Shown here one piece after another: positions 1 to 12,090 of a stretch of DNA of 64,000 nt. Positions within the stretch are counted from its first letter, which is position 1. The number at the start of each line of letters is the position of its first letter. A program made the position numbers and the translations under genes. The stretch is from sequence record MK373792.1; one strand, 5' to 3'. This stretch comes from Escherichia phage vB_EcoS_VAH1. Under the pieces are notes generated by a model that saw nothing but the letters and a program-made list of their open reading frames with translations, did no database searches and was not told where the DNA came from.

Positions 1-820
1 TAGGTTTGAGGAGAAGTTGAGAGAGCGAGAAAAATTTGGGGAGCTAGAAGGATGTGGGGCAGGATTGGTGCGAAGCACCTGATTTGCGGGGATTTTGGGG
101 AAGAGTTGAGATAATTTGGGGAAATTTGAGATAGGTGCAGAAAAAAGTAAAATTTTATTAGCAAAATGGGGCAAAATAGCTTGACAAGTGAAAATTCTTG
201 TGGCTCTAAAAACTCAGGCAATCATGGGCCTTCGGCCCGAAAAATGCTGCTATTTTCAGGAGAGTAAGAGTTCCTAAAAACTTAGGCGTTTGTGCAAATC
301 CGACCATAAATTTCTAGAAATGCAGTGTGCAAATCCGACAGTAATTTCTGGAAATGTGTTTTCAAAAAATGTCTCCTAGAAATAACCGCCCTCCCTATAA
401 CCGCCCTGTATTAAACCGCCTAGTATATGTAACGTTGGAGAGAAACTGCCCTAGAATATGTGCAAATCCGATGATATTTTGTGCTTATCAATTTAGAATA
501 TGTGCAAATCCGATGAATATTTTTGTGTGATCTCTAGAATTTGTGCTTATCAATTTCCTAGAAACTTAGGAGTCTAGAAGAAAGTGTTGTGCCATCCTAG
601 CAGATGAGCGGCAACCGGTGTATCATCTTGAACACAGATATTGCCTTTAAATATTATAAGGTAAATTAAAAGTAAAGTAGCCCCCATTACATGTGTGCTT
701 ACTCGTGGGGCGCGTGATTAATTACGTAAGTCCTCGACTGTCATACCCCTGTTTGCTCGGTCGCAAAGAGTTAACGAAGTCTCGTGTAATAATCATCGCC
801 CCTAGAGTTCAAAACAAGAG
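1..820. repeat. Repeat-rich non-coding region: GTGCAAATCCGA x4, TTGTGCTTATCAATTT x2, AACCGCC x3, YTAGAAW x8, purine-rich GGGG/GAG repeats, GGGCC-TTCG-GGCCC hairpin near 230
   Basis: Direct reading; no ORF above 60 aa on the gene strand. Confidence 0.6.
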
Positions 821-887
821 TTGTTTTTAATCTATGTGATTATTATAACATGTGCCGCAATGAGTTGTCAAAAGATTTTGTTAACTT

Positions 888-1268
888 TTATTCCTCCTCT
901 TCGAGATTGGTATTGGGATCGTAAATTTTCTTGGCTCCTGTATTTAGGAATCGCTCTGCAAGTTGTGGGTGAATATCAAAGAACTCTGTGCATCCTTCGA
1001 ATCCCTTTAAATTACAGCGGTATTTCTTAAAGTAGATATGAGCAGCGGCTTCTAGATCTCTAGGATTATGGGTTTCATAAATCCCATACACGTATAAATC
1101 GTCAAAACCTCGATAGACTATCTTATCTAAGTTTAGTGTTTGAATCCTATTATGTGGATTCATACTGATACCGATCTTTGTTCTTTTAGGGATCTTCGTC
1201 AGATCCCTATTTGCAAGAATATATACTTTATATAGTGACATTCTTTCTAGCCTTGAGTTTGATACCAA
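888..1268 (-). CDS. T5orf172 (GIY-YIG-like) domain protein
   Basis: YKVYILANRD...KIGIS...GCTEFFDI pattern, shared with 14690..15301 and 46060..46731 C-termini. Confidence 0.5.
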   Translation of the reverse strand: MVSNSRLERMSLYKVYILANRDLTKIPKRTKIGISMNPHNRIQTLNLDKIVYRGFDDLYVYGIYETHNPRDLEAAAHIYFKKYRCNLKGFEGCTEFFDIHPQLAERFLNTGAKKIYDPNTNLEEEE

Positions 1269-1340
1269 GAGATGCGAAGTAGATATAAGTTGCTAAATAG
1301 GACATAGCAGATCCTGTCTCTTCGTAAGAGAGAGTTCCTT

Positions 1341-1946
1341 TCACGTACCTCTCTTATATTCTGGCTCTAGATTAATAATCGTAGTACTTGGCAATCCTAG
1401 CGAATTACATAATGATTTGAATGTTTCTTTATCTCTATGAATCGCATAGTGAATGGCTTTCTCCATTGGAGTTAACTCTAGATCTTTGGTAATGGCTACA
1501 TGCAAACTCGCTATAGTCATGCCAATCCCACGATACGTTTCTTCTTTATTAAGGGAAGGTCTCTGTTTTTCTAGCTCAGGAAGATGTGCAAATTCTCCCT
1601 TCTTTCTAGGAATCTTATCATCACTAAGTAATGCTGTTAAGAAATCTGTTTCTTCATAGGCTGGGAGCACTTCATCAATTAATACTAGAATAGAGCTAGC
1701 ATTGATACCTTTCGCACTAGGATCTAAAGATTTTAATGCTTTATTAGTTTCAACGTAGGAGCCTGCTAACACAACTTTTGAGCTATTCCGATCATATTTA
1801 ATTTTATTCGCTTCCCAACGCGCAGGACGATAATCAGATAGAAACATTACCGCATACTTTTGTTCATCTGTTAGCTCGGAGAAACATTTCTGGTTTGATT
1901 CTTTTGCTAGCGCAATAAGGTGCTTTAGTTTTTCTGCTTTATTCAT
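1341..1946 (-). CDS. hypothetical protein
   Basis: 201-aa ORF, balanced composition, in minus-strand gene string. Confidence 0.45.
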   Translation of the reverse strand: MNKAEKLKHLIALAKESNQKCFSELTDEQKYAVMFLSDYRPARWEANKIKYDRNSSKVVLAGSYVETNKALKSLDPSAKGINASSILVLIDEVLPAYEETDFLTALLSDDKIPRKKGEFAHLPELEKQRPSLNKEETYRGIGMTIASLHVAITKDLELTPMEKAIHYAIHRDKETFKSLCNSLGLPSTTIINLEPEYKRGT

Positions 1947-1948
1947 TG

Positions 1949-2338
1949 TTAGACCTCCTGAGCTTTATCTTCTGTATAGAAATCTTCGGTAGCTTGATAA
2001 TGTAATGTAAAGAATTCAAAAGACAGGCAATCTGATGCTGTATTTTGAATGTATCTTAATTCATTAATAAAGGATTCTTTGAAGATCTTACGGTTAGGTT
2101 TTAGTTCTATCAGTTGGTTAATAAGCTCATCGATTAATTCTATTGCATCATCTATATACTCATCCATAAATACTGGGGATTCATAGATTATTTCTTCAAC
2201 TCCGTTAGTAACTAAAGCGACTACAATTACCTCTCCCGTAGTTTCTTCAGGGTAAAGATAACCTGAATCTACTTTACGAACAGTAACGCGAGTTTGGCTA
2301 GTAATTTGACGATTTATAGCAATAATATAATGTAACAT
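1949..2338 (-). CDS. hypothetical acidic protein
   Basis: 129-aa ORF abutting the upstream gene. Confidence 0.45.
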   Translation of the reverse strand: MLHYIIAINRQITSQTRVTVRKVDSGYLYPEETTGEVIVVALVTNGVEEIIYESPVFMDEYIDDAIELIDELINQLIELKPNRKIFKESFINELRYIQNTASDCLSFEFFTLHYQATEDFYTEDKAQEV

Positions 2339-2412
2339 AAATTCTCCTAATATGCCTCTCCTATTAAAAGGTCTGGAGAGGCGTAGACCTATAAATTAGT
2401 TAACGATCTTTA

Positions 2413-3006
2413 TTAATCCTTTTTACTTTCGTTAATAACAGCTCCCAGTGCTTCCATAATTGTATCTTCTAGACTTCCATGTTTATCAGGATTGCTTAAG
2501 TGAATAGTATATGAGTTCCTAGAAACTCCAGAGTCCACAGGTGCTACGCTTTTCATGTCAGATTCAAAAGCTTCTTGAGTATGTTTCAACTGTGCAGAAG
2601 GTCCATAATCTTCACCAAACTTATATGACTGCGTACTACTTACCACACCCCCACAAGGAACATTGTGCAAATCCGATGATTTATTTAGCATTGAGATTGT
2701 CCCTGACTGCCACGGATCTCTAATAGTCACAGGAGTACTAGGACGGTTCACCTCAGTCTTCACGAGTTTATAGCCAGCATCTATTAATGCGTTAATAAGG
2801 TTATCAGCTGGAATGCGAGCCTTGCCAAAAATCTCACGAGCGTTGTTGAGCCTACCTTCAAAACCTTTACATGCTCTAATATTAGTGTGTGCAAAGGTTA
2901 GCTTCATAGATTTGAATTGTACAGTAGCAGTTAAATCTTTAAAGCTATAATCCCATGTGTTCAGTTCATGGTCTGGTACTACTTGAATAGGTTGTTGTGT
3001 AAACAT
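2413..3006 (-). CDS. hypothetical protein
   Basis: 197-aa ORF. Confidence 0.45.
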   Translation of the reverse strand: MFTQQPIQVVPDHELNTWDYSFKDLTATVQFKSMKLTFAHTNIRACKGFEGRLNNAREIFGKARIPADNLINALIDAGYKLVKTEVNRPSTPVTIRDPWQSGTISMLNKSSDLHNVPCGGVVSSTQSYKFGEDYGPSAQLKHTQEAFESDMKSVAPVDSGVSRNSYTIHLSNPDKHGSLEDTIMEALGAVINESKKD

Positions 3007-3191
3007 TATTTATTCTCCAGTTTGTCTAACAGTTTATGGGCTGCTAGATTATATTGTTTGAGTTCACGATTAAGGATTTGGTTCTCACACTTTAGTTCTA
3101 TGTTCTCCTTATTAAGAATACTACAGATTAATAGGAGTGCTAATATAACTACTAACGAACCTACGAGCATTAAAAGAAAAAGAGTTTCCAT
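3006..3191 (-). CDS. small membrane protein
   Basis: Single hydrophobic helix, start overlaps upstream stop. Confidence 0.35.
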   Translation of the reverse strand: METLFLLMLVGSLVVILALLLICSILNKENIELKCENQILNRELKQYNLAAHKLLDKLENK

Positions 3192-3424
3192 TATTTAATT
3201 CCCATATAGCGTTTGAGATACGTGATGAAGTCTTCCGCTGTATGCGCTACGCTACCTTGAGCTACAAATACTTTTAAGGTCGCTCGCTGTAGTTTAAGGG
3301 TAGCCAACTCACCACGTAATTTTGTTATATCTTCAGCTAGTTCTCTAGCTCTGCGCATAATAGCAAATGATACAAATGTTACAATAAATAACATAACTGC
3401 TAAAATAATTACTATGATCTCCAT
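3191..3424 (-). CDS. small membrane/coiled-coil protein
   Basis: N-terminal TM helix. Confidence 0.35.
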   Translation of the reverse strand: MEIIVIILAVMLFIVTFVSFAIMRRARELAEDITKLRGELATLKLQRATLKVFVAQGSVAHTAEDFITYLKRYMGIK

Positions 3425-3702
3425 ATTAACATCCAGCTCTTATCGTATATTTGGGCATGTTCTACTAATTCATTTATCGATGTAGAATTATCGTAGATAC
3501 CCTCTAGTAAACGTTTTCTGTCAAATTTATCAACCAAGTACTCTGTGCCATTTATCACTACCCTATACAGCTCTGGAACTAAGGGGTGTTTGTTTGGTAT
3601 TGGACGACTACCTAAGTCTATTTCATTATACCCCCACGTTGTTTTAAATAGTTTATTACTAAGTGCTGCTAGTGGGTTTGACCATACAATATAGCTACTC
3701 AC
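3412..3702 (-). CDS. hypothetical protein
   Basis: 96-aa ORF. Confidence 0.4.
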   Translation of the reverse strand: MSSYIVWSNPLAALSNKLFKTTWGYNEIDLGSRPIPNKHPLVPELYRVVINGTEYLVDKFDRKRLLEGIYDNSTSINELVEHAQIYDKSWMLIWRS

Positions 3703-4243
3703 TACTTATCTCCATTCTTAACTTTGAAAACTTATTATACCAAACTATGTGATTATCGTCAATTACAAATTTATGGTAACATGCTGGTACGGTATAAGTT
3801 CCATAATCCGTGACACGCTGCACAACCTTGTGTGCACACAGTCGACACCCATGCCCTTCTAAATGAGATCTAGCAGTTTGCCAGTAATAACCATCATGAT
3901 CTGGACAATAGATCTCGACTTGCTGTTGCATTGTCTTATAATTTACACGCTCATACCCGAAGAAAGCTCCATGAGCTGCAATGGCTTTCTTGATAAATAT
4001 AAGGTTTAGTGCTTCTTGTTGAAAGTCGGGGTGTAGTTGCTTAATCTTAGTTCTATTAATAGACCCATCCGATTTGATGAACCTATTTATTGGGAAGTTG
4101 TTAGCTTCCTCGATTAATAATTCATTTACTTTCTCTCTCATATTATATACTCTCACAACTAAGGTGGAAACATTCGTAAGCATCCCCAGTAAACTCTTTA
4201 TCTTGTAATAAGCACTTAGCCTGGTCTTCCGGTACTCCAGCAT
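3695..4243 (-). CDS. hypothetical Cys/His-rich protein
   Basis: CPDHDGYYW...GHGCRLCAHK possible metal-binding cluster. Confidence 0.4.
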   Translation of the reverse strand: MLEYRKTRLSAYYKIKSLLGMLTNVSTLVVRVYNMREKVNELLIEEANNFPINRFIKSDGSINRTKIKQLHPDFQQEALNLIFIKKAIAAHGAFFGYERVNYKTMQQQVEIYCPDHDGYYWQTARSHLEGHGCRLCAHKVVQRVTDYGTYTVPACYHKFVIDDNHIVWYNKFSKLRMEISSE

Positions 4244-4402
4244 CTAATAATTGTTGTTTACTTGGCTTTTCAGCGAATACTTTTACAAAGTACTCACCAT
4301 CTTGATTATACTCATTTATATCTCTAGTAAGGACATATACTTGCATTTGAAGTTCCTTAAAAACATAAAAGGCCAGAACAACTAAGTCCTGGCCTCCTAA
4401 AA

Positions 4403-4840
4403 TTAATGAAGCTGTTTACCACTTCTTAACATAGTGGCCGTTTCCATAAGACCTAGCGTAGCATCACGCTTATTGATCTGTTTACCAAGTTCATCAGTAC
4501 GTTTACTGATGTAAGCATTAATAGCCATATTCATAGCTGTAGCGAGATCTTCTTTGGTTATCTCTTCATCGTCTAAAGCTAATTTAGCCAAAGAATCAAA
4601 TGTGCTAGAGAGTCCTATAAGATCTGAGGTTTCTCCCGCCAAAATAAGATTAATATTATCTACTGTTACTTCTAGCATGGAGTTGACAATATCTTCACCG
4701 TCTATTAGACCAGTTTCAATATTACTCTCCCACTCCTTCATCTGCTCCAATAATGGATTTTTCTTTTCTGTCATGGTAGAGGTTTCCTGTGTCAGTCGGT
4801 AAGAATGATGATTGCGTTTTAGGTGGGTGTTGTTTAGCAA
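4403..4840 (-). CDS. hypothetical acidic protein (true start probably internal)
   Basis: Track ORF overlaps 4722..5183; internal Met likely. Confidence 0.35.
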   Translation of the reverse strand: MLNNTHLKRNHHSYRLTQETSTMTEKKNPLLEQMKEWESNIETGLIDGEDIVNSMLEVTVDNINLILAGETSDLIGLSSTFDSLAKLALDDEEITKEDLATAMNMAINAYISKRTDELGKQINKRDATLGLMETATMLRSGKQLH

Positions 4841-5183
4841 TCCAGTTAAGAATCAGCACGCGACTAGGAACAATATCGGTATTATACCAAAAATCGTGAA
4901 CCCATTGACGAGCATCTTCAAACTTACCAAATTTATATGCTTTCTTAAACAATTCAAATCCAAAACAATCTGGTGTAAAATCTACTTCGCGATATTGAAT
5001 TACTTTAGAACCAGTTAGGTCTTGTATCGCTGCATTAATTTCTGTATGTGAGAATTTTGTTTCATGAAACTTATTAAAGAATCGGTAGTTGAAGCGTCCG
5101 TTCGTTTCGACAAACAACTGGATGAAAAGATCGTTAAATTGGTTATCAAACCAGTAATTCTGTAGTTGTTGTAGTGCTGTCAT
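4722..5183 (-). CDS. hypothetical protein
   Basis: 153-aa ORF. Confidence 0.45.
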   Translation of the reverse strand: MTALQQLQNYWFDNQFNDLFIQLFVETNGRFNYRFFNKFHETKFSHTEINAAIQDLTGSKVIQYREVDFTPDCFGFELFKKAYKFGKFEDARQWVHDFWYNTDIVPSRVLILNWIAKQHPPKTQSSFLPTDTGNLYHDRKEKSIIGADEGVGE

Positions 5184-5380
5184 TTACGAACCCCGTTAAT
5201 CGCCATAATGATGCCTTCATACATAAAAGGAAGTAACCCAGAAGTATAGAATATATTTTCTGTTATTCCTAGATGTCGAAAAAGTATATTAAATAATGCT
5301 GTTAGAAATACAATCTGAGGCAGTAATACAAAATACTCAGTTACAATCTTTGGTGCCTGATAAACAAGACGTTTTACCAT
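5180..5380 (-). CDS. small membrane protein
   Basis: Two hydrophobic segments. Confidence 0.35.
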   Translation of the reverse strand: MVKRLVYQAPKIVTEYFVLLPQIVFLTALFNILFRHLGITENIFYTSGLLPFMYEGIIMAINGVRK

Positions 5381-5479
5381 TGTTTTTAAGTCTCCTTATT
5401 ACTTTGGCCTGCTCCACAATAATGAAAACTGCGAGCACTAATAGTGCTATTAGCCCCGCAGTAATTGGTACTAAATCAA

Positions 5480-5806
5480 TCATGGGAGACGCCATACATA
5501 ATTAGCTGTCTGTAGAACCTTAGGTGTGTCATCATGGTACATTACTACAGACTTTGGTGAATAACTATCAGCTAGTTCTTTACGAATCATCTTACATTCT
5601 TCACCAGTATCGATATTTTTAACTATCACTTTCATATTAAGAGGTGTTAATACAGAAAGCGGTTTCCAGGAGTCCTCAATCTCAATTCCTACCTTTTTCT
5701 CGATTACCGTGAGAACTTCTAGTGTATCATCTGGAATACTAATATTATTATTCACAAACTGTAATATCTCATGTAAGGTATTTAATTCATTAAAATTAAG
5801 CTTCAT
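5480..5806 (-). CDS. hypothetical protein
   Basis: 108-aa ORF. Confidence 0.4.
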   Translation of the reverse strand: MKLNFNELNTLHEILQFVNNNISIPDDTLEVLTVIEKKVGIEIEDSWKPLSVLTPLNMKVIVKNIDTGEECKMIRKELADSYSPKSVVMYHDDTPKVLQTANYVWRLP

Positions 5807-6041
5807 CTTTAAGAATATCCTCTACCATATCACAGGACTGTTGCAATTCGTCAGCAATACGTTTAATATCGGTTTTTGTTACTTTACCAACTAACATCAC
5901 CAGTAACATAGAAAAGATAATAAGTGGAACTGGAATAACAAATAAAGCTACCTTAACAACATTCTTTGGCGTCCATGTGTGGTACTTGGTAACCAGTACA
6001 CCAACCACAATCAAATAAAACGCTAGAATAAACATCATCAT
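5796..6041 (-). CDS. small membrane protein
   Basis: Two TM helices. Confidence 0.4.
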   Translation of the reverse strand: MMMFILAFYLIVVGVLVTKYHTWTPKNVVKVALFVIPVPLIIFSMLLVMLVGKVTKTDIKRIADELQQSCDMVEDILKDEA

Positions 6042-6319
6042 TTTTTAATCTCCGTAATTATCTGAGCACGCATCACTTTATTAGGTAATTTTGTATTCCC
6101 AGCTATTGCTTCAATATTGTTTAGTTTTTCTTTTAGAATATCTGAGCGTCTCTGTGCTAGTTCAATATCTTGTTCTTGTTCTATTAAGCGGCAGTGAAGT
6201 CCATCATTAGTAATAAGCATACTTTCCATGTTTTTTCGTGCGTTTACAATCCCAATAACTCCACCAATCGCTACTAGTGTAGTAAGAACTAGTAACCCAA
6301 TAAGAATTTCTGTAATCAT
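6038..6319 (-). CDS. membrane-anchored coiled-coil protein
   Basis: N-terminal TM then heptad-like region. Confidence 0.4.
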   Translation of the reverse strand: MITEILIGLLVLTTLVAIGGVIGIVNARKNMESMLITNDGLHCRLIEQEQDIELAQRRSDILKEKLNNIEAIAGNTKLPNKVMRAQIITEIKK

Positions 6320-6852
6320 TTATTTAATTCCTCTAAAGTAGGTAAGGGTTTTGTATGATCAAAAGTTTCTATAACAGCGTTAGGCCCATGTAGTTCTAAA
6401 CGTAGTTCATTAGCTCTTTGAACTGCCAACTCTAAATCTAGATACCTAAAGTAGCCTCCGTGTACTGTAATGCTTTCGGCGCTTCTGGCCTGGACTCTCC
6501 ATTGTTGTCGATCTTTTTTCCAGGTAACTCCTAAGTATCCCGAATTAGATTGAGCGATTCTGCTACGATTATTCTCTTGGGACGTACAATCTTTTAAATT
6601 ACACCATCTATTATCTTTTCTTATATTATTTAAGTGGTGTACTAGATTTGGAATATACCCCTCCATGTACAAAAAAGCTAACCTATGGGCTGCATATCTT
6701 TTTCTATTTATTCCAATAAATATATAACCATCCTTATCAGGACTACCAGCAATACTACCTGCTTTACCTCGCCCTCTACTGACTTTCCTTATAAATTCGC
6801 CCGTTTCCGGGCGGTATTCAAATAGCTCTTTTAATCTTTCTTGTGTTATCAT
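6316..6852 (-). CDS. HNH homing endonuclease (HNH_3/AP2-type)
   Basis: MITQERLKEL N-terminus, HRLAFLYMEGYIP...VHHLNN...N..NL motif; paralog of 10167..10706 and 62736..63269. Confidence 0.75.
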   Translation of the reverse strand: MITQERLKELFEYRPETGEFIRKVSRGRGKAGSIAGSPDKDGYIFIGINRKRYAAHRLAFLYMEGYIPNLVHHLNNIRKDNRWCNLKDCTSQENNRSRIAQSNSGYLGVTWKKDRQQWRVQARSAESITVHGGYFRYLDLELAVQRANELRLELHGPNAVIETFDHTKPLPTLEELNK

Positions 6853-7115
6853 TTTTTCTTTAATTGCTTAACTTCACGCTCAAAGCTAGCCGCTCGTCGT
6901 TCTGCCACTGCTTGATGCTCCTTAGCAAAGCGTGCCTCTTGTTTTGCTAAGTTAAAGGCCATAGCGTTCTTGTTAAGAGAATCGTACATCTTCTTCATCG
7001 CCGGAATAGACATTTTCATCAGTTGCCCCTCAAATCCTTGCATATCGAGGAGAATTGCCAGAACGTTAGCCATTTCATTTTTAGTCATGTTTTCCATTAG
7101 AATTTCCTCTCTCAT
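6849..7115 (-). CDS. hypothetical protein
   Basis: 88-aa ORF. Confidence 0.4.
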   Translation of the reverse strand: MREEILMENMTKNEMANVLAILLDMQGFEGQLMKMSIPAMKKMYDSLNKNAMAFNLAKQEARFAKEHQAVAERRAASFEREVKQLKKK

Positions 7116-7175
7116 TAATTTATGAACTTATTATACAGAATTTTAAGGCTTAAAGCAACTGAATTTTTTAATTAC

Positions 7176-7607
7176 TTACCAATCGTTAACAACACCAGAG
7201 AACTCAGAAGCAAAAACTTTTTCAAATTTTTCTGCAATTTCAGGATGATCTTTGCAGATCAGCTCAATGCATGCTTCTGGAGTCATTCCTTCATCTTCAG
7301 GATCACCATAGTATTTATCCCAAAGATCATCGGGAATGATATGCTCTGCCAAATCTTGGAAAGAGATTAACTGATAACGTTCTGCCTCCTCAGCGATAAG
7401 AATTTCGCACAGATCTTTATCTATATCGCTACGATAATCCGCAATTAATAAGGCATTGCAAGCATGACATTCCCAGACCATCAAACGTTCAGAGATAGGA
7501 TTAGACTTATCCTGAACGTAAGACTGGAACAAGGTTCGGAAAGTTGCCTTAACTTGTTCAAACTTATCTGCTGCTGCGAAAACTAGAGCTTTATCAACTT
7601 TGTTCAT
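7176..7607 (-). CDS. hypothetical acidic protein
   Basis: 143-aa ORF downstream of promoter cassette at ~7620-7680. Confidence 0.45.
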   Translation of the reverse strand: MNKVDKALVFAAADKFEQVKATFRTLFQSYVQDKSNPISERLMVWECHACNALLIADYRSDIDKDLCEILIAEEAERYQLISFQDLAEHIIPDDLWDKYYGDPEDEGMTPEACIELICKDHPEIAEKFEKVFASEFSGVVNDW

Positions 7608-7774
7608 TTTGATTCCTTCTCATCAATTTATAAAGTAATTATACAGAAACTTAAGCATTTTAGCAAATAAAACTTTCAATTAAAATGCCTAATCCTGTGC
7701 CAATAGCAATACAAATGATTATAAGTATTGCTATCGCTTGTATGCTTCGTTTAATAATAGCCTCAGCTATATAC

Positions 7775-8368
7775 TTAGACATTTATATCGCCACGTAATA
7801 CAGCAGCTACATCTTCCCCTATTTGTAATACTTCGCCAGTAGTACAATTAACTACTCTATCATAGCTAGTAAACTTACCAGACACAATATCCTCTAGTGG
7901 AATTGGAGTTTTACTCATTTCAAATGAGACATTAATATAACGTGGATCACGTAAAGAAGTAGTATGTACATGTCCGTGAATATTTAGTTTGCCACGAAGT
8001 TCATTAGGGTGCAAAGGGCAGTGAGATAGCCAAAACTTTTTGCCACCTCCAGTCTGTTTGCCTAGAGCTTGAATATCGTCATAAACTTCCGCTAAGTCCC
8101 TAATACTCAGTCCTTGACGCTCCGCATCATGATTACCCATAATGAGTTGATTAGGGACATTGTGGATAACCGACTTTAATTTGGCCAGACCTTCACGACC
8201 TACTGCAATATCTCCTAGCAAAATAAGTTTTGTTCGTTTACCAATATGCTTGGATAAAGTATCTAGAATATACTCATCGTGCTCTTTCATGTTCTTAAAC
8301 CACGGACGGAAACGTAGTGCTCCGGGGTGGTCTAAGTGCAAGTCTGACCAGAATTTAACCTTCATCAC
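7775..8368 (-). CDS. calcineurin-like metallophosphoesterase
   Basis: DLHLDHP, GDIAVGR, GNHD, GHVH motifs. Confidence 0.65.
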   Translation of the reverse strand: MMKVKFWSDLHLDHPGALRFRPWFKNMKEHDEYILDTLSKHIGKRTKLILLGDIAVGREGLAKLKSVIHNVPNQLIMGNHDAERQGLSIRDLAEVYDDIQALGKQTGGGKKFWLSHCPLHPNELRGKLNIHGHVHTTSLRDPRYINVSFEMSKTPIPLEDIVSGKFTSYDRVVNCTTGEVLQIGEDVAAVLRGDINV

Positions 8369-8653
8369 TTACTCCTTTTTTTGTATTAAATTATCAACCC
8401 AGGTAGTTAATACTCTAGTTTTAAACTCCTCGGGAGTCTCTCCTTCCTTAAGGTCTACCTCATTAAGGTAGGTAGTAAGCCTTGTTTCTATCTCTATTTC
8501 AGCAGGAGAATTAAAACAAAAATTGACTGCTATTCCAGAATATATTACTCCGGTATCTCCTTTGACGAAAGCATTAACTAATGCTCTCCAACGAAGGGCA
8601 TCAATACGCATTGCTCGTAATTCTTCTTGTACTTCTTTCATTCTATCATTCAT
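8369..8653 (-). CDS. hypothetical protein
   Basis: 94-aa ORF. Confidence 0.4.
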   Translation of the reverse strand: MNDRMKEVQEELRAMRIDALRWRALVNAFVKGDTGVIYSGIAVNFCFNSPAEIEIETRLTTYLNEVDLKEGETPEEFKTRVLTTWVDNLIQKKE

Positions 8654-9480
8654 TAAAGAATCCTCTGTACACCACAGCTATCTTCTCGAAGCGTGGTAAA
8701 TGTTGTGATTTTCCCAGTTTCATCATTAACTTGCGCAACCGTCAACTGCCCGTTGAAAACACCGCCAGTATCAAGATAAACACGGTTCTGGTATAAAATC
8801 GGGTAAGGTACTCCAGTATGCCCGTGAAACACGAAATCTACCCCTTTAACTTCTGGCACTTCTACCATGTATTTCTCTTTAAACCCTGCATAACGCTGGA
8901 AATATGAGTGTTCTTCACCATTTTTAGATAAGTGAAAACCTATTTCTTGGATTACATCTCGATCCCATAAGTATGGTTCAACATGGTATCCAGGATGGTC
9001 ATGTGGGTCTTCCTTAGATGCTTCTACTTGTGCAATAAGGTTATCCCATACTGGGGTTTCTACTTCGTTACCACATTCTTTGTACGTAAAAGGTACACCA
9101 CCATGAACAACACCATACTTTTTACCACGATGCAATACAGTCAGAAATACTGGCATTTTTTCAGCCATGTCTTCAGCAATATTTTTAATGGTATCTGCAT
9201 CTAGTTCATTCATAGCCCACATACCACCATTATACATCCAGTTAGCCCAATCTCCCACAATCATAAATTGGTCATGATTACCTCGGACACTGATAAAGCG
9301 TGGATTATACAGGAATTTGGCTAAAACTTGTAGGTTCTGCGTGCCTCGATCAATTAAATCTCCCACGCATACAACACAATCTTTCTTGCCGTTATAGCCA
9401 GCTAATTGTAGTGCATCTTCTAGTAAATCGTTACATCCATGAATATCACCAACGAAAAACAAGTTGGCGTCATCCGGCAC
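8653..9480 (-). CDS. serine/threonine protein phosphatase (PPP family, lambda-PPase-like)
   Basis: GDIHG, GDLIDRG, RGNHD, GH motifs; GTG start. Confidence 0.8.
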   Translation of the reverse strand: MPDDANLFFVGDIHGCNDLLEDALQLAGYNGKKDCVVCVGDLIDRGTQNLQVLAKFLYNPRFISVRGNHDQFMIVGDWANWMYNGGMWAMNELDADTIKNIAEDMAEKMPVFLTVLHRGKKYGVVHGGVPFTYKECGNEVETPVWDNLIAQVEASKEDPHDHPGYHVEPYLWDRDVIQEIGFHLSKNGEEHSYFQRYAGFKEKYMVEVPEVKGVDFVFHGHTGVPYPILYQNRVYLDTGGVFNGQLTVAQVNDETGKITTFTTLREDSCGVQRIL

Positions 9481-9519
9481 TACTAGAGTTTTATGTACAT
9501 TAAATTCTTTTTTTCATAA

Positions 9520-9765
9520 TTATTCCCAAATAACAGTTAAAATAGTTGTGCCATAATCATTAGATAGCTGGAGAGTATAACCCTCTTTATAGAGGGCTTT
9601 TATAGCTTCATAACTAATTTCATCACGATTAAACTGTACAAAAGAACCCCCAATCTCCACAGAAGAAACTATTCTCTTTTTAACATACTTATATGGTTTC
9701 TTTCTGCTCTTGAGAAGAGCAGCTCTATTAACTCTAGCTAAATGTTTTGCTTGCTCTGCTAACAT
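9520..9765 (-). CDS. hypothetical protein
   Basis: 81-aa ORF. Confidence 0.4.
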   Translation of the reverse strand: MLAEQAKHLARVNRAALLKSRKKPYKYVKKRIVSSVEIGGSFVQFNRDEISYEAIKALYKEGYTLQLSNDYGTTILTVIWE

Positions 9766-9862
9766 TTAATCCTCCTATCAATCTATATAAATAGTATACC
9801 AAAATTTTTAGCAAAAAGCAAGTAAAATAAAAGCCTGATCCGCTAAGATCAGGCTTGGTTTA

Positions 9863-10159
9863 TTAATCCTCTGGATTATCGTCTAGGAAATTTTTAATAG
9901 CTTCGTGCATAGTTTCTTTACGAAGCTGACGTCCAACCAAAATATGATTAGCTTCTACTCGACCATTAGGTAAGCGATCCGCTAGAACTACTACAGGAAC
10001 AGCTCTTACTCCGAACTTCTGCATTAATTCTGTATTATCAGTCTCTTTGTGGACTTCCAAATTATAGTCATTGACTACTTTATCAAATACTGGCTCGAAA
10101 AGAGCACAAGGACGACACGTGGAACCTTTTAATAAATAAATAACTTTGCTCATATACAC
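9863..10159 (-). CDS. thioredoxin/glutaredoxin-like protein
   Basis: CRPC (CxxC) near N-terminus, ~98 aa. Confidence 0.5.
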   Translation of the reverse strand: MYMSKVIYLLKGSTCRPCALFEPVFDKVVNDYNLEVHKETDNTELMQKFGVRAVPVVVLADRLPNGRVEANHILVGRQLRKETMHEAIKNFLDDNPED

Positions 10160-10166
10160 TCCTATT

Positions 10167-10706
10167 TTACTTGTTAAGCTCTTCTAAATCTGGTATATAT
10201 CCAAGAAACTCCTCAATTAAAGCGTACTCCCCAGCAATCTCCTGTCTAGACTTATTCGCTAAGTCTACTGCCAGAGCTAAGTCTTCATAATTGAAGATTC
10301 CTTTCATACGTTTTCGGCCTGTTTCATCCGTAATTTGAACTCTCCATTTCTGCCTATCTTTAGCCCACATAACATTTGCATATCCGGATTTGGACTTTTT
10401 ATGCTTTTTATTACGACAATTTTGTGGTTTAGATGCAGAACGTAAATTTTTCCATCGGTTATTTTGTGGATTTCTATCTATGTGATCCACAAATTCAGGT
10501 ATATATCCTTCCATATATAGGAAGGCCCATCTATGGGCTCCCTGCCTCTCCCCTTCCACCATTATCATTATGTAATCATTGTTGTACAGGGTTCCAGCTT
10601 CCATTCCCCTCTTTACATACTGATTATTACCATCTATCTTCCAGGTAAACACACCCGTTTCCGGGTTATAATCTAGTAATTCCTTTAATCTTTCTTGTGT
10701 TATCAC
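10167..10706 (-). CDS. HNH homing endonuclease (HNH_3/AP2-type)
   Basis: Paralog of 6316..6852; GTG start. Confidence 0.75.
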   Translation of the reverse strand: MITQERLKELLDYNPETGVFTWKIDGNNQYVKRGMEAGTLYNNDYIMIMVEGERQGAHRWAFLYMEGYIPEFVDHIDRNPQNNRWKNLRSASKPQNCRNKKHKKSKSGYANVMWAKDRQKWRVQITDETGRKRMKGIFNYEDLALAVDLANKSRQEIAGEYALIEEFLGYIPDLEELNK

Positions 10707-11107
10707 AATTTATTAATGGCCTCCAAGAAGTTTTTCATGCACCTAACAGTTGCAGTGCTGAGATCTAGAGTAGTTCCTAAACATTCTGTTAATGCTGCCT
10801 GGTAAGGCGCTTTTAAACGCCCTTCAGGGACTTCTACCTTTTTGTAGGTTTTATTCTTTACTTTATCCAACATAGCTTCAAGAACATTGAGAGGCAATTT
10901 CGCACCCTCAATATTCACACCAAGCATTTCGGTCAGCATGTTATTAAGATCAATACGAGTAAGTTTCTTGCCTTTAGACATAGTAGTTCCTGCCCTCTTC
11001 TCAAGTTTTTTACGCTCTGGTGAATCGAGGTCACGTAATGCGATGTTCAACTCATATGGAGCCATGTTATAATGTTCCGCCATTTGAGTGTAGAAACGAT
11101 CAGACAT
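10703..11107 (-). CDS. hypothetical protein
   Basis: 134-aa ORF. Confidence 0.4.
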   Translation of the reverse strand: MSDRFYTQMAEHYNMAPYELNIALRDLDSPERKKLEKRAGTTMSKGKKLTRIDLNNMLTEMLGVNIEGAKLPLNVLEAMLDKVKNKTYKKVEVPEGRLKAPYQAALTECLGTTLDLSTATVRCMKNFLEAINKL

Positions 11108-11182
11108 AATATATACCTCTCTTAACTAATTTATGTATATATTATATAATAACTAGGGCTAAAAGTCAACTACTTTTTTATC

Positions 11183-11599
11183 TTAATCTACTACATGTAT
11201 AAATCTTTTTCTAACTAGATACATAGTTATTGGGTAAATTGAGTACATAAGTATCGGGGAGAAAAGGGTGAAATACGCTGTAACTCCCCCAGCTAACATC
11301 AAAGGTATTAATGCTAGAGTAAGGGCCATAAGAATCATACCGAATGAAACAGCCAAAGCTATGGATATAGGATTCTCTAGTTCCATCCATAACCAACAAT
11401 ATTTCGTATCTCTATGGCAATTGCATTTACAAACGCCGAATGAACCCATAATTATATACTCTAGTCCGTGAATAACCTTTATTAATAAGCTATTTCGGGT
11501 AGTTAATGCAATGATAGTAAAGACTATCATTAAAACGAATACTACTAGACTTATTTTCCAGATACCTAGCAGCATCATAGTGAATAGTTCTGCAAACAT
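11183..11599 (-). CDS. multi-pass membrane protein (holin candidate)
   Basis: 3-4 hydrophobic helices, immediately downstream of endolysin. Confidence 0.4.
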   Translation of the reverse strand: MFAELFTMMLLGIWKISLVVFVLMIVFTIIALTTRNSLLIKVIHGLEYIIMGSFGVCKCNCHRDTKYCWLWMELENPISIALAVSFGMILMALTLALIPLMLAGGVTAYFTLFSPILMYSIYPITMYLVRKRFIHVVD

Positions 11600-11676
11600 G
11601 GCTTTCTCCTATCTTCAAAAATTATTAAAGCCCCCTTTGCCTAAAAAGGCGGGAATATTCCCGCCTAAGTTATTAA

Positions 11677-12090
11677 TTAAACTAGTTCGACATGACCGCC
11701 ATCATAGGTACCACGTTTTATTTCATCGTGATAGTCTCCCGAAGCATTCCAATCAGCACCAAAACGAAGTTTAATGCCTAGCTCTTTACCAGCTTGTTCA
11801 AAAGCCTTTTTAACTGCCCAAAATGCTTCTAAGTCATTCCAGTCAATTTTGCCATTAATATATGGAGCAAAATCGATAGCATCCCCAGTAATATGTTTGC
11901 TTTTACTAGGATCTTTTAGAAATGAAGTACCATTAGCAATGTTCTGGGCACTTTGTGCTACTGTACGAATACCTTGCACGATTGTGAAATCGTACGGAGA
12001 TAATTCTAAAGCCCTACGAGCTACTTTTTGTAGCTCGGGCTTAACGGTAGCTAATTGTTTTTCGCTATTTTTACCAAATTTAAAACTCAT
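11677..12090 (-). CDS. lys: endolysin, zinc L-alanyl-D-glutamate peptidase (M15 family)
   Basis: 137 aa; HITGDAIDF and DGGHVE zinc-ligand motifs as in T5-type endolysin. Confidence 0.8.
   Translation of the reverse strand: MSFKFGKNSEKQLATVKPELQKVARRALELSPYDFTIVQGIRTVAQSAQNIANGTSFLKDPSKSKHITGDAIDFAPYINGKIDWNDLEAFWAVKKAFEQAGKELGIKLRFGADWNASGDYHDEIKRGTYDGGHVELV

What the first reader, a model, noticed from the sequence alone, without database searches (positions are those of the whole stretch)
1..820. Repeat array at the left edge
The first ~800 bp has no gene-strand ORF but carries GTGCAAATCCGA four times (~291, 327, 460, 512; a fifth copy lies inside the ORF at ~2670), TTGTGCTTATCAATTT twice, AACCGCC three times, YTAGAAW about eight times, and purine-rich GGGG/GAG repeats at 1-150. 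The layout is iteron-like and may be a protein-binding array (terminal-repeat boundary, injection-stop or replication/packaging signal).
Basis: seen in the sequence. Interest (0 to 1): 0.5.

Follow-up and report, generated by a model that had tools for sequence, protein, structure and literature searches.

The report
T5 terminal-repeat junction repeat array
The repeats are real, but they are the already described "direct repeat D/A" array at the right end of the left terminal repeat of T5-like phages; what they do is still unknown, and an unannotated small structured RNA gene sits next to them.

Summary
The window comes from a T5-like phage (Tequintavirus). By homology, bases 1-206 are the last 206 bp of the left terminal repeat. 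The genome-end cut site is at 206|207, the same position in T5, BF23 (mapped with PhageTerm), HdH2 and NBSal005.

GTGCAAATCCGA is the core of the 15-mer "direct repeat D" (TGTGCAAATCCGACA) annotated in T5 record AY587007. The window holds the equivalents of copies 7, 8, 9 and 10, plus one extra copy from a 42-bp local duplication. The purine-rich repeats include "direct repeat A" copies 2 and 3. Davison calls the region "Repeat Region 3", and part of it is annotated as the injection stop signal. So the array is already known; its function is not.

New here:
- The same-strand D-repeat array also occurs next to the repeat boundary in Klebsiella phages, Pectobacterium phage My1 and Vibrio phage Chester (A1 34% identical). 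Proteus phage PM135 lacks it.
- AACCGCC boxes lie at a fixed distance from the cut and recur about 35 bp inside the left genome end.
- A consensus promoter on the minus strand (871→842) drives a structured, sequence-hypervariable RNA of about 180 nt, with no Rfam match.

Best guess (about 0.4): a composite cis-acting junction signal, with D repeats controlling two-step DNA transfer and the other motifs marking the terminase cut.

The parts
1..206 (+). [quoted passage not shown] It ends at the position homologous to the physical right end of the T5 genome.
   Evidence: Window 3-206 aligns to the last 204 bases of T5 NC_005859. HdH2 and NBSal005 end at the same position. The PhageTerm-derived LTR end of BF23 (9743) maps to window 206|207.
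1..150 (+). Purine-rich short repeats (TTTGGGGA / TTGAGA). They include the equivalents of T5 'direct repeat A' copy 2 (92-110) and copy 3 (114-130).
   Evidence: AY587007 annotates DR-A copies 2 and 3 at 10026-10064. Purine-rich repeats also fill the last ~150 bp of the repeat in My1 and, as 8-bp units, in Vibrio phage Chester.
181..219 (+). Cut-site context TTGACAAGTGAAAATTCTTGTGGCTC|TAAAAACTCAGGC, with the terminal cut at 206|207. The first copy of the CTAAAAACTYAGGC family starts at the cut.
   Evidence: The same context, TTGACAAATGAAAA-N-|AAAAAC, is at the My1 boundary. The CTAAAAACT family lies at 206, 274 and 558.
226..238 (.). G+C-rich hairpin or palindrome GGGCCTTCGGCCC, 20 bp beyond the cut. 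It is fully conserved.
   Evidence: sequence; conservation profile. Chester has the palindrome GGACGTCC at a similar distance.
291..305 (+). Direct repeat D, equivalent of T5 copy 7 (TGTGCAAATCCGACC).
   Evidence: 99% column identity in 26 relatives.
326..340 (+). Direct repeat D, equivalent of T5 copy 8 (TGTGCAAATCCGACA), 35 bp after copy 7 as in T5.
310..321 (.). Perfect palindrome ATTTCTAGAAAT. It is one of seven CTAGAA motifs on the + strand of 1-820.
383..420 (+). Three WWACCGCC boxes (ATAACCGCCC, ATAACCGCCC, TAAACCGCC), 177-214 bp to the right of the cut.
   Evidence: A homologous block lies at +161 and +177 in My1. A T[AT]ACCGCC box also lies about 35 bp inside the left physical end of T5, HdH2, My1 and Chester.
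452..493 (+). 42-bp local duplication absent from all 26 relatives sampled. It creates the extra D-repeat copy (459-473) and the first TTGTGCTTATCAATTT (479-494).
   Evidence: These columns are gaps in every other sequence; repeat families D1 and D7.
501..515 (+). Direct repeat D, equivalent of T5 copy 9 (TGTGCAAATCCGATG). This block (494-554) is present in only about half of the relatives.
555..640 (.). Conserved non-coding block (91% column identity) of unknown role. It may be the 3' part of the leftward transcript.
842..871 (-). Consensus sigma-70 promoter TTGACA-18-TG-n-TATAAT, pointing left toward the array and the repeat boundary.
   Evidence: 12/12 match with an extended -10. TTGAC...TGTTAT[A/C]AT is conserved in 20 distinct relatives. 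It is also present in Klebsiella-type, Proteus PM135 and, as a variant, Vibrio Chester phages.
655..835 (-). Putative small structured RNA of about 180 nt: a 5' hairpin, a long imperfect hairpin, and a GGGGG-containing 3' hairpin with a U-rich tail. Both ends are approximate.
   Evidence: Folding z = -2.8 to -3.2 in the window and -4.5 to -6.9 in seven other Tequintavirus variants whose interiors are only about 50% identical. Hairpin 1 shows compensatory changes. No Rfam family, tRNA or conserved ORF.
2664..2678 (+). Direct repeat D, equivalent of T5 copy 10, inside the T5.019-like ORF (2413..3006, minus strand). It reads Ser-Asp-Leu-His in frame.
   Evidence: Codon conservation is only in the top 12% of 12-nt windows, so selection on the DNA motif cannot be separated from protein constraint.

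Best explanation
[quoted passage not shown] It is a composite cis-acting signal region, not a gene.

Shown:
- The repeat ends at 206|207.
- The GTGCAAATCCGA sites are T5's 'direct repeat D'. They are all on one strand and nearly invariant.
- An array of them lies beside this boundary in four lineages of the family.

Inferred mechanism:
- The co-oriented 15-bp D repeats are binding sites for one sequence-specific factor whose specificity has stayed fixed across the family.
- Bound sites form a polar nucleoprotein array at the border between first-step-transfer and second-step-transfer DNA.
- This array takes part in the pause and/or the A1/A2-dependent restart of DNA entry. It acts either as a roadblock or as a polar loading site.
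- The lineage-specific purine-rich repeats, the TTGACAARTGAAAA context and the ACCGCC boxes, which keep a fixed distance from the cut and recur at the left genome end, are the better candidates for the terminase cut-site signal.
- A small structured RNA is transcribed from the unique side toward the array. It would be the first element of the second-step DNA to enter the cell.

Confidence is about 0.95 for the identity and location. The 0.4 given below applies to the mechanism.
For: Identity:
- 444 phage records match, nearly all Salmonella or Escherichia phages; every record whose annotation was opened is a Tequintavirus.
- The positions map one-to-one onto AY587007 DR-D copies 7-10 and DR-A copies 2-3.
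- Davison describes the same 'Repeat Region 3' overrunning the LTR by 270 bp.

Boundary.

Selection:
- D repeats are 99% identical against 90% for neighbouring non-coding DNA and 88% for the adjacent gene.
- The same strand and the same order are seen in 26 of 26 relatives.

Deep conservation with fixed orientation relative to the boundary:
- Klebsiella phage: 8 copies.
- My1: 4 copies inside and 3 outside the repeat.
- Vibrio phage Chester: 8 copies, all on the unique side within 470 bp of the boundary, although A1 is only 34% and A2 only 40% identical.

Position: in T5 the array starts 4 bp after the 7.9% nick that marks the first-step-transfer end, between the last pre-early gene and the first early gene.

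Two repeat classes behave differently:
- Repeats nearest the cut differ between T5/My1 and Chester, as expected for a fast-evolving terminase recognition site. The D repeat does not change.
- D-repeat distances to the cut vary (+86 in T5, +248 in My1, +39 in Chester). The ACCGCC block stays at about +160-180 in T5 and My1 and has a counterpart about 35 bp from the left end in all lineages checked.
Against: - No experiment links any motif here to injection. Literature from 2020 to 2026 still calls the stop signal and the second-step-transfer mechanism unknown.
[quoted passage not shown] That is left of all D repeats, which may still be outside the cell during the pause.
- To my knowledge T5 ejects all its DNA in vitro without stopping at 8%, so a purely DNA-encoded stop is insufficient.
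- Proteus phage PM135 has A1 and A2 but no D repeats.
- A2 divergence does not track the presence of D repeats.
- The boundary always lies within or at the edge of the D-repeat array, which also fits a packaging role.
- Six of the nine non-coding T5 copies are duplicated in the right terminal repeat, where an injection role is pointless.
Confidence: 0.4

Rival explanations
1. The D-repeat array is itself the terminase (packaging) recognition platform for the cut that creates the right genome end. This would resemble the repeated boxes that flank the cut in P1 pac or SPP1 pacL/pacR.
For: - The cut at 206|207 lies in the gap between D-repeat copies in T5, BF23 and My1, and 39 bp from the array in Chester.
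- Unique-side copies are the common denominator in all lineages that have the motif.
- Repeats flank the cut on both sides in T5 and My1.
- By the last-in, first-out rule (my inference), packaging should start at this end.
Against: - The distance from the cut to the nearest copy is not conserved: 86, 248 and 39 bp.
- The array spans 430-740 bp plus a copy 2.4 kb away, which is large for a terminase site.
- The motif is invariant across subfamilies in which the cut-adjacent repeats have been replaced. That is unusual for sites read by small terminase subunits, which evolve fast.
- No D repeat lies near the left-end cut, whereas the ACCGCC box does.
Confidence: 0.25
2. The motif works at the RNA level. 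The leftward consensus promoter (871→842) gives a long non-coding transcript that reads through the array, so each site is a UCGGAUUUGCAC element. These could act as a protein sponge or as processing sites.
For: - Every copy, including the one inside the ORF, is in the sense orientation for leftward transcription.
- The first copy lies about 320 nt downstream of the predicted start in the window, and about 313 nt downstream in Chester.
- No canonical terminator is predicted in 1-1400.
Against: - Several relatives have a clear hairpin-plus-U terminator before the array (HdH2).
- In T5 and My1 four to six copies lie beyond the repeat boundary and a G+C hairpin.
- The GGA part of the motif is not conserved in Chester, which argues against CsrA-type binding.
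- There are no expression data.
Confidence: 0.1
3. The array is a set of iterons of a replication origin. The adjacent strong promoter would supply a primer or R-loop RNA.
For: Direct repeats, a promoter with no gene behind it pointing into them, and DnaA boxes further left in the repeat of T5 and Chester.
Against: - Spacing is irregular (35, 133 and 42 bp) and out of helical phase.
- There is no consensus DnaA box in 1-820. The reverse complement of the D repeat matches 8 of 9 positions, but that resemblance is lost in Chester, where the motif ends ...GCACC.
- No initiator gene lies nearby.
- Per Davison, T5 origins were mapped near the centre of the genome.
Confidence: 0.07
4. The repeats are neutral leftovers of local duplications in a gene-free spacer and have no function.
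For: The window carries a recent 42-bp duplication, and copy 9 is present in only about half of the relatives.
Against: The D-repeat 15-mers are 99% conserved. Strand and order are fixed in 26 relatives, and the same 12-mer array is kept in phages whose proteins are 34-66% identical.
Confidence: 0.02

Closest known systems
T5 'direct repeat D' and 'direct repeat A' (AY587007 annotation, Wang et al. 2005); 'Repeat Region 3' of Davison 2015/2020
   Same: Same 15-mer TGTGCAAATCCGACA, same strand, same order and spacing (35 bp between copies 7 and 8). It has the same position across the LTR boundary and the same extra copy in the T5.019 gene. DR-A copies 2 and 3 lie in the last 115 bp of the repeat.
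   Different: This phage has one additional copy from a 42-bp duplication. The window starts inside the array, so copies 1-6 are not in it.
T5 injection stop signal (iss), as annotated in NC_005859 (9140..10149) and AY692264
   Same: Window 1-~136 lies inside the annotated stretch, and the array begins at the 7.9% nick that marks the first-step-transfer end.
   Different: The annotation is positional, not functional. Davison's candidate core (IRD'-spacer-IRC' with paired DnaA boxes, 9332-9462) lies about 500 bp to the left of the window. The four copies in the window lie outside both the annotated signal and the repeat.
Packaging sites with repeated boxes on both sides of the cut (P1 pac, SPP1 pacL/pacC/pacR, lambda cosB). 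This comparison rests on my own knowledge.
   Same: Short repeated motifs flank a sequence-specific terminase cut.
   Different: The array is far longer, its distance to the cut is not conserved, and terminase binding has not been tested.
T7 concatemer junction: short repeat arrays flanking the terminal repeat, and the gene-less promoters phiOL/phiOR needed for processing. This comparison rests on my own knowledge.
   Same: A terminal repeat bordered by arrays of short direct repeats, with a strong promoter that has no protein gene behind it next to the repeat.
   Different: The promoter here is a host sigma-70 type, it points into the repeat from the other side, and it is followed by a discrete structured RNA.
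Plasmid or phage origin iterons
   Same: Several co-oriented direct repeats in a gene-free region.
   Different: Spacing is irregular, and there is no adjacent initiator gene, AT-rich unwinding element or consensus DnaA box in the interval.

Membership tests
T5 direct repeat D array (Repeat Region 3) | 15-mer consensus TGTGCAAATCCGACA in several copies on one strand | tested here: met
   Five copies with an exact 12-mer core, all on the + strand. The 15-mers match the AY587007 DR-D copies.
T5 direct repeat D array (Repeat Region 3) | [quoted passage not shown] | tested here: met
   Window 1-1000 aligns to T5 at about 10014-11000. The LTR end maps to window 206. Gene context.
T5 direct repeat D array (Repeat Region 3) | Order and spacing of copies 7-8-9, plus an intragenic copy 10 in the T5.019 homologue | tested here: met
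   Start-to-start spacings are 35 and then 133/175 in the window, against 35 and 137 in T5. The intragenic copy is at 2665.
T5 injection stop signal | Lies within the stretch annotated as iss in the T5 records | tested here: inconclusive
   Only window 1-~136 overlaps 9140..10149 of NC_005859. The four GTGCAAATCCGA copies lie outside it.
T5 injection stop signal | Paired DnaA boxes in inverted repeats IRD'/IRC' (Davison's candidate core) | tested here: not met
   There is no TTWTNCACA in 1-820. The only near matches are the reverse complements of the D repeats, at 8 of 9 positions. The IRD'/IRC' element lies to the left of the window.
T5 injection stop signal | Acts in cis to halt DNA entry at about 8% of the genome | not testable with these tools
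   This needs infection experiments with mutant phages.
Terminase recognition (pac/cos-type) site | Adjacent to the sequence-specific cut that makes a genome end | tested here: met
   The cut is at 206|207. The nearest D repeat is at +86 and the ACCGCC boxes at +177.
Terminase recognition (pac/cos-type) site | Fixed geometry relative to the cut in related phages | tested here: inconclusive
   Not met for the D repeats: +86 in T5, +248 in My1, +39 in Chester. Met for the ACCGCC block: about +160-180 in T5 and My1, with a related box about +35 from the left end.
Terminase recognition (pac/cos-type) site | Bound by the small terminase subunit | not testable with these tools
Replication-origin iterons | Regularly spaced repeats next to an initiator gene, DnaA boxes and an AT-rich unwinding element | tested here: not met
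   Spacing is irregular and there is no consensus DnaA box. Neighbouring ORFs are a T5orf172/MUG113-domain protein and proteins with no Pfam match.
Any Rfam RNA family (for the minus-strand RNA at 835→655) | Covariance-model match | tested here: not met
   No hit at E<=1 in window 1-1400. No relevant hit in the T5, Chester or PM135 loci. No tRNA or tmRNA.

The most novel reading that the evidence does not exclude
The junction holds a conserved three-part module found across the Demerecviridae lineages checked, and it has not been described as a unit. Its parts are:
1. A consensus sigma-70 promoter driving a small RNA of about 150-220 nt. The long hairpin of this RNA is hypervariable in sequence but constant in shape. 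No family or paper describing it was found.
2. The co-oriented D-repeat array, about 300-550 nt downstream of that promoter.
3. The terminal-repeat cut site, with ACCGCC boxes that also mark the left genome end.

On this reading the RNA is the first product of the second-step DNA. Together with the D-repeat array it would control either the switch from first-step to second-step transfer or the duplication and cutting of the terminal repeat.
Probability: 0.3. Interest if true: 0.65.

Novelty: already known. Interest (0 to 1): 0.35.

Why it matters
How T5 stops DNA entry at 8% and restarts it has been an open question since the 1960s. Papers from 2020 to 2026 still call the signal undefined.

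The array itself is not new. The comparison made here does narrow the candidates:
- The D repeat keeps its sequence and orientation from E. coli phages to Vibrio phages, and the unique-side copies are the shared core.
- The motifs nearest the cut change with lineage.
- The ACCGCC boxes link the two genome ends.

This gives concrete, separable targets for mutagenesis in T5 or Bas33. The unannotated structured RNA beside the array is a cheap thing to check in existing RNA-seq data.

Tried and rejected
1. Coding explanation. The 58-aa ORF 354..530 and all ORFs of 20 aa or more in 1-890 were examined. ORF 354..530 is not conserved in relatives; the shorter ORFs in 1-890 were only listed, not compared.
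2. DnaA-box reading of the D repeat. Its reverse complement ATTTGCACA matches 8 of 9 positions, but in Vibrio phage Chester the motif ends ...GCACC.
3. CsrA-type GGA sites at the RNA level. The GGA is absent from 5 of the 8 Chester copies.
4. Matching the 15-mer from memory to CRP, LexA, PurR, GalR, sigma-54 and MarA sites. None fits in spacing or half-sites. This rests on memory only and was not a database test.
5. Scan of IMG/VR for three ATTTGCAC cores within 7-37 bp of each other.
6. Shared cut-site sequence at the two T5 ends. No similarity was found at the cuts themselves.
7. DR-A copy 1 as a marker of the left end. It lies inside ORF011 at 6960.
8. A2 identity is 44% between T5 and PM135 and 40% between T5 and Chester, which does not track motif presence.
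9. Selection on the intragenic copy. Its conservation is not clearly above what the protein requires.
10. MAFFT/RNAalifold consensus for the RNA. The interior cannot be aligned. Only hairpin 1 and the closing stem are recovered.
11. Davison 2015 (PMC4743489) could not be read. A full-text search for the exact 12-mer found nothing.

Full report
**What the sequence is**

Window 1-1000 matches 444 phage records. Nearly all are Salmonella or Escherichia phages, and every record whose annotation was opened is a Tequintavirus. Identity is 88-95%.

The window aligns to T5 (NC_005859) from about 10,014 onward. In that record:
- the left terminal repeat (LTR) is 1..10219;
- an "injection stop signal" is annotated at 9140..10149;
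- a major nick lies at 9748/9749;
- the first early gene, T5.018, lies at 10936..11820 on the minus strand.

So the finding sits in the gene-free spacer between the rightward pre-early genes of the repeat and the leftward early genes.

**Check of the observation**

All the listed motifs are present.
- GTGCAAATCCGA is exact at 292, 327, 460 and 502, and again at 2665. All five copies are on the + strand. Chance expectation for an exact 12-mer is far below one.
- TTGTGCTTATCAATTT (479, 541), AACCGCC (384, 399, 414), CTAGAA (7 copies on the + strand) and TTTGGGG/GGGG are all enriched against the remaining 63 kb.
- No ORF explains the region. The 58-aa ORF at 354..530 varies from 8 to 100 aa in relatives and shows no codon-position bias.

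**The repeats are already annotated in T5**

GenBank record AY587007 (Wang et al.) lists "direct repeat D" copies 1-10.
- Copies 1-6 lie at 9672-9895, inside the LTR.
- Copies 7-9 lie at 10225-10409, just outside it.
- Copy 10 lies at 12073-12086, inside ORF019.
- "Direct repeat A" copies 2 and 3 lie at 10026-10064.

The annotated sequences are TGTGCAAATCCGACA and close variants. Their positions correspond one-to-one to the copies I located in T5, HdH2 and Kenya-K18. The window therefore holds the equivalents of copies 7, 8, 9 and 10 and of DR-A copies 2 and 3.

One extra D copy, and one of the two TTGTGCTTATCAATTT copies, come from a 42-bp duplication (452-493) that none of 26 relatives carries.

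Davison's preprint describes the same "Repeat Region 3" (9194-10409) as overrunning the repeat by 270 bp and as highly conserved. It assigns no function to the D repeats. Papers from 2026 still describe the stop signal only as a repeat-rich non-coding region of unknown mechanism.

**Where the terminal repeat ends**

- The last 204 bases of the T5 genome align to window 3-206, ending ...GTGGCTC.
- HdH2 and NBSal005 end at the same base.
- The BF23 repeat, determined with PhageTerm (9743 bp), also maps to 206|207.
- The annotated repeat ends of Kenya-K18 and chee24 lie about 100 and 220 bp further left. I treat these as differences in annotation.

Bases 1-206 are thus the end of the repeat.

**Conservation**

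I fetched 28 related loci through the T5.019-like protein. Twenty-six span the region, and all of them have the D-repeat array on the same strand and in the same order.

| Region | Column-majority identity |
|---|---|
| Non-coding 1-451 | 0.90 |
| Block 555-640 | 0.91 |
| Adjacent coding gene (T5.019-like) | 0.88 |
| The two D-repeat 15-mers | 0.99 |
| RNA body, 641-835 | 0.69 |

The intragenic copy is conserved, but not clearly beyond what the protein requires.

**Deeper comparison**

I used the pre-early protein A1 to reach distant members of the family.
- **Klebsiella phage** (A1 74% identical): 8 same-strand copies within about 550 bp.
- **Pectobacterium phage My1** (the name is my inference from the 122,024-bp contig length; A1 66%): 4 copies inside the repeat and 3 outside it.
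- **Vibrio phage Chester** (A1 34%, A2 40%): 8 copies of T[CA]G[GA]ATTTGCACC. All lie on the unique side within 470 bp of the boundary, in the same orientation relative to it. There are none elsewhere in 33 kb examined.
- **Proteus phage PM135** (A1 about 43-45% across): none.

So the unique-side copies, which are the ones in this window, form the shared core of the array.

The distance from the cut to the nearest copy varies: +86, +248 and +39 bp.

**Other motif classes behave differently**

- *Purine-rich repeats.* The last ~150 bp of the repeat is purine-rich short repeats in T5 and My1, and 14 tandem 8-bp units in Chester. The cut context TTGACAARTGAAAA-N-|AAAAAC is shared by T5 and My1 but not by Chester.
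- *ACCGCC block.* The block (...CTAGRRAATAACCGCCCTCCC...AACCGCCCTGT) sits at about +160-180 from the cut in both T5-like phages and My1.
- *Left-end box.* A related box T[AT]ACCGCC lies about 35 bp inside the left physical end of T5, HdH2, My1 and Chester. In the last three it is part of a conserved ATGAGAAYRAGTCTCATTACCGCCC element.

I infer that these lineage-variable or end-linked motifs are better candidates for the terminase cut signal than the invariant D repeat. This inference is post hoc.

**Mechanism**

What is shown: location, identity, co-orientation, strong purifying selection and the phyletic spread.

What is inferred: the D repeats bind one factor of fixed specificity and form a polar array at the border between first-step and second-step DNA. 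In T5 the array begins 4 bp after the 7.9% nick. I give about 0.4 to a role in the pause or the A1/A2-dependent restart of DNA entry.

Evidence against this role:
- PM135 has A1 and A2 but no D repeats.
- To my knowledge T5 shows no 8% stop in vitro.
- There are no experiments on these motifs.

Rivals:
- A packaging role for the D repeats themselves: 0.25.
- An RNA-level role in a leftward transcript: 0.1.
- Origin iterons: 0.07. Irregular spacing, no consensus DnaA box and no initiator gene all count against it.
- Neutral repeats are excluded by the conservation.

**A second element inside the interval**

The promoter scan found a perfect TTGACA-18-TATAAT promoter with an extended -10 on the minus strand at 871→842. 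It lies just after the stop codon of ORF 888..1268 and points toward the array.

- The promoter is conserved in all 20 distinct Tequintavirus sequences aligned.
- Downstream, each of eight sequence variants folds into the same layout: a 6-7-bp hairpin, a 100-130-nt imperfect hairpin, and a GGGGG-containing 3' hairpin with a U-rich tail. Their interiors are only about 50% identical.
- Dinucleotide-shuffle z-scores are -3.2 for the window and -4.5 to -6.9 for the others.
- Hairpin 1 shows compensatory changes.
- The same promoter-plus-hairpins layout is present in the Klebsiella-type phage, in PM135 (z = -5.6) and, more weakly, in Chester (z = -2.2).
- There is no Rfam match, no tRNA and no conserved ORF.
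- The T5 records do not annotate it. HdH2 annotates only a terminator there.
- My literature searches found no description, which is not proof of absence.

Expression is untested.

**Verdict**

The array is a known feature of the T5 family whose function is unresolved.

Three points add modest new value:
- the cross-subfamily conservation of the D repeat;
- the separation of the motifs into classes that behave differently;
- the neighbouring candidate RNA gene.

Noticed in passing
window 655-871, minus strand: A consensus sigma-70 promoter (871→842) is followed by a structured RNA of about 180 nt. The sequence of its long hairpin is hypervariable between otherwise ~90%-identical phages, but its shape is kept. 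There is no Rfam match, and the same layout occurs in the Klebsiella-type, Proteus PM135 and Vibrio Chester phages.
   Followed up: partly
window 383-420; T5 positions ~35-42 (L034/L035); L204; L044: The three AACCGCC boxes lie at a conserved distance (~+160-215) from the repeat cut in T5-like phages and My1. A related T[AT]ACCGCC box lies about 35 bp inside the left physical end of T5, HdH2, My1 and Chester. It is a possible recognition element shared by both genome ends.
   Followed up: partly
window 452-493: A 42-bp duplication is unique to this phage among the 27 sequences compared. It adds one D-repeat copy and one TTGTGCTTATCAATTT copy. Block 494-554 (copy 9) is present in only about half of the relatives, so copy number is tolerated to vary.
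   Followed up: yes
window 226-238: An invariant G+C hairpin, GGGCCTTCGGCCC, lies 20 bp beyond the genome-end cut. Chester has the palindrome GGACGTCC at a similar distance. Neither strand has a U-run after it, so it is not a canonical terminator.
   Followed up: no
window 555-640: An 86-bp non-coding block is 91% conserved and contains the stem GATGA...TCATC. It lies between the D-repeat array and the variable RNA hairpin. Its role is unknown, and it could be a conserved 3' domain of the leftward transcript.
   Followed up: no
window 888-1268, minus strand: This ORF carries a T5orf172/MUG113 domain; matching records annotate homing or GIY-YIG endonucleases here. DNA to the right of ~880 is poorly conserved among relatives, so the gene next to the RNA is a variable, possibly mobile insert.
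   Followed up: partly
L044 4546-4660 and 4740-4830 (Vibrio phage Chester, MN966732): The physical end of the repeat consists of 14 tandem 8-bp units (TCTAGACT / TCTATCCA). Consensus DnaA boxes GTTATCCACAAC (x2) and CTTATCCACC follow within 300 bp. This echoes Davison's DnaA boxes in the T5 stop-signal region.
   Followed up: no
L039 (Kenya-K18), L041 (chee24): The annotated terminal-repeat ends of these records map to window 104 and to ~13 bp left of window 1. T5, BF23, HdH2 and NBSal005 all map to 206. The cause is either differing annotation methods or truly different cut sites.
   Followed up: partly
window 2664-2678: The D-repeat copy inside the T5.019-like gene is kept with at most 1 mismatch in 27 of 28 relatives. 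About half carry the same single substitution, which changes Leu113. Selection on the DNA motif cannot be separated from protein constraint.
   Followed up: yes
L034 ~732-940 (T5 111,230-111,440, upstream of the left edge of the right terminal repeat): Purine-rich GCGGRAG-type repeats lie within gene T5.162, about 90-250 bp before the left-end cut. They loosely mirror the purine-rich repeats before the right-end cut. Not tested for significance.
   Followed up: no
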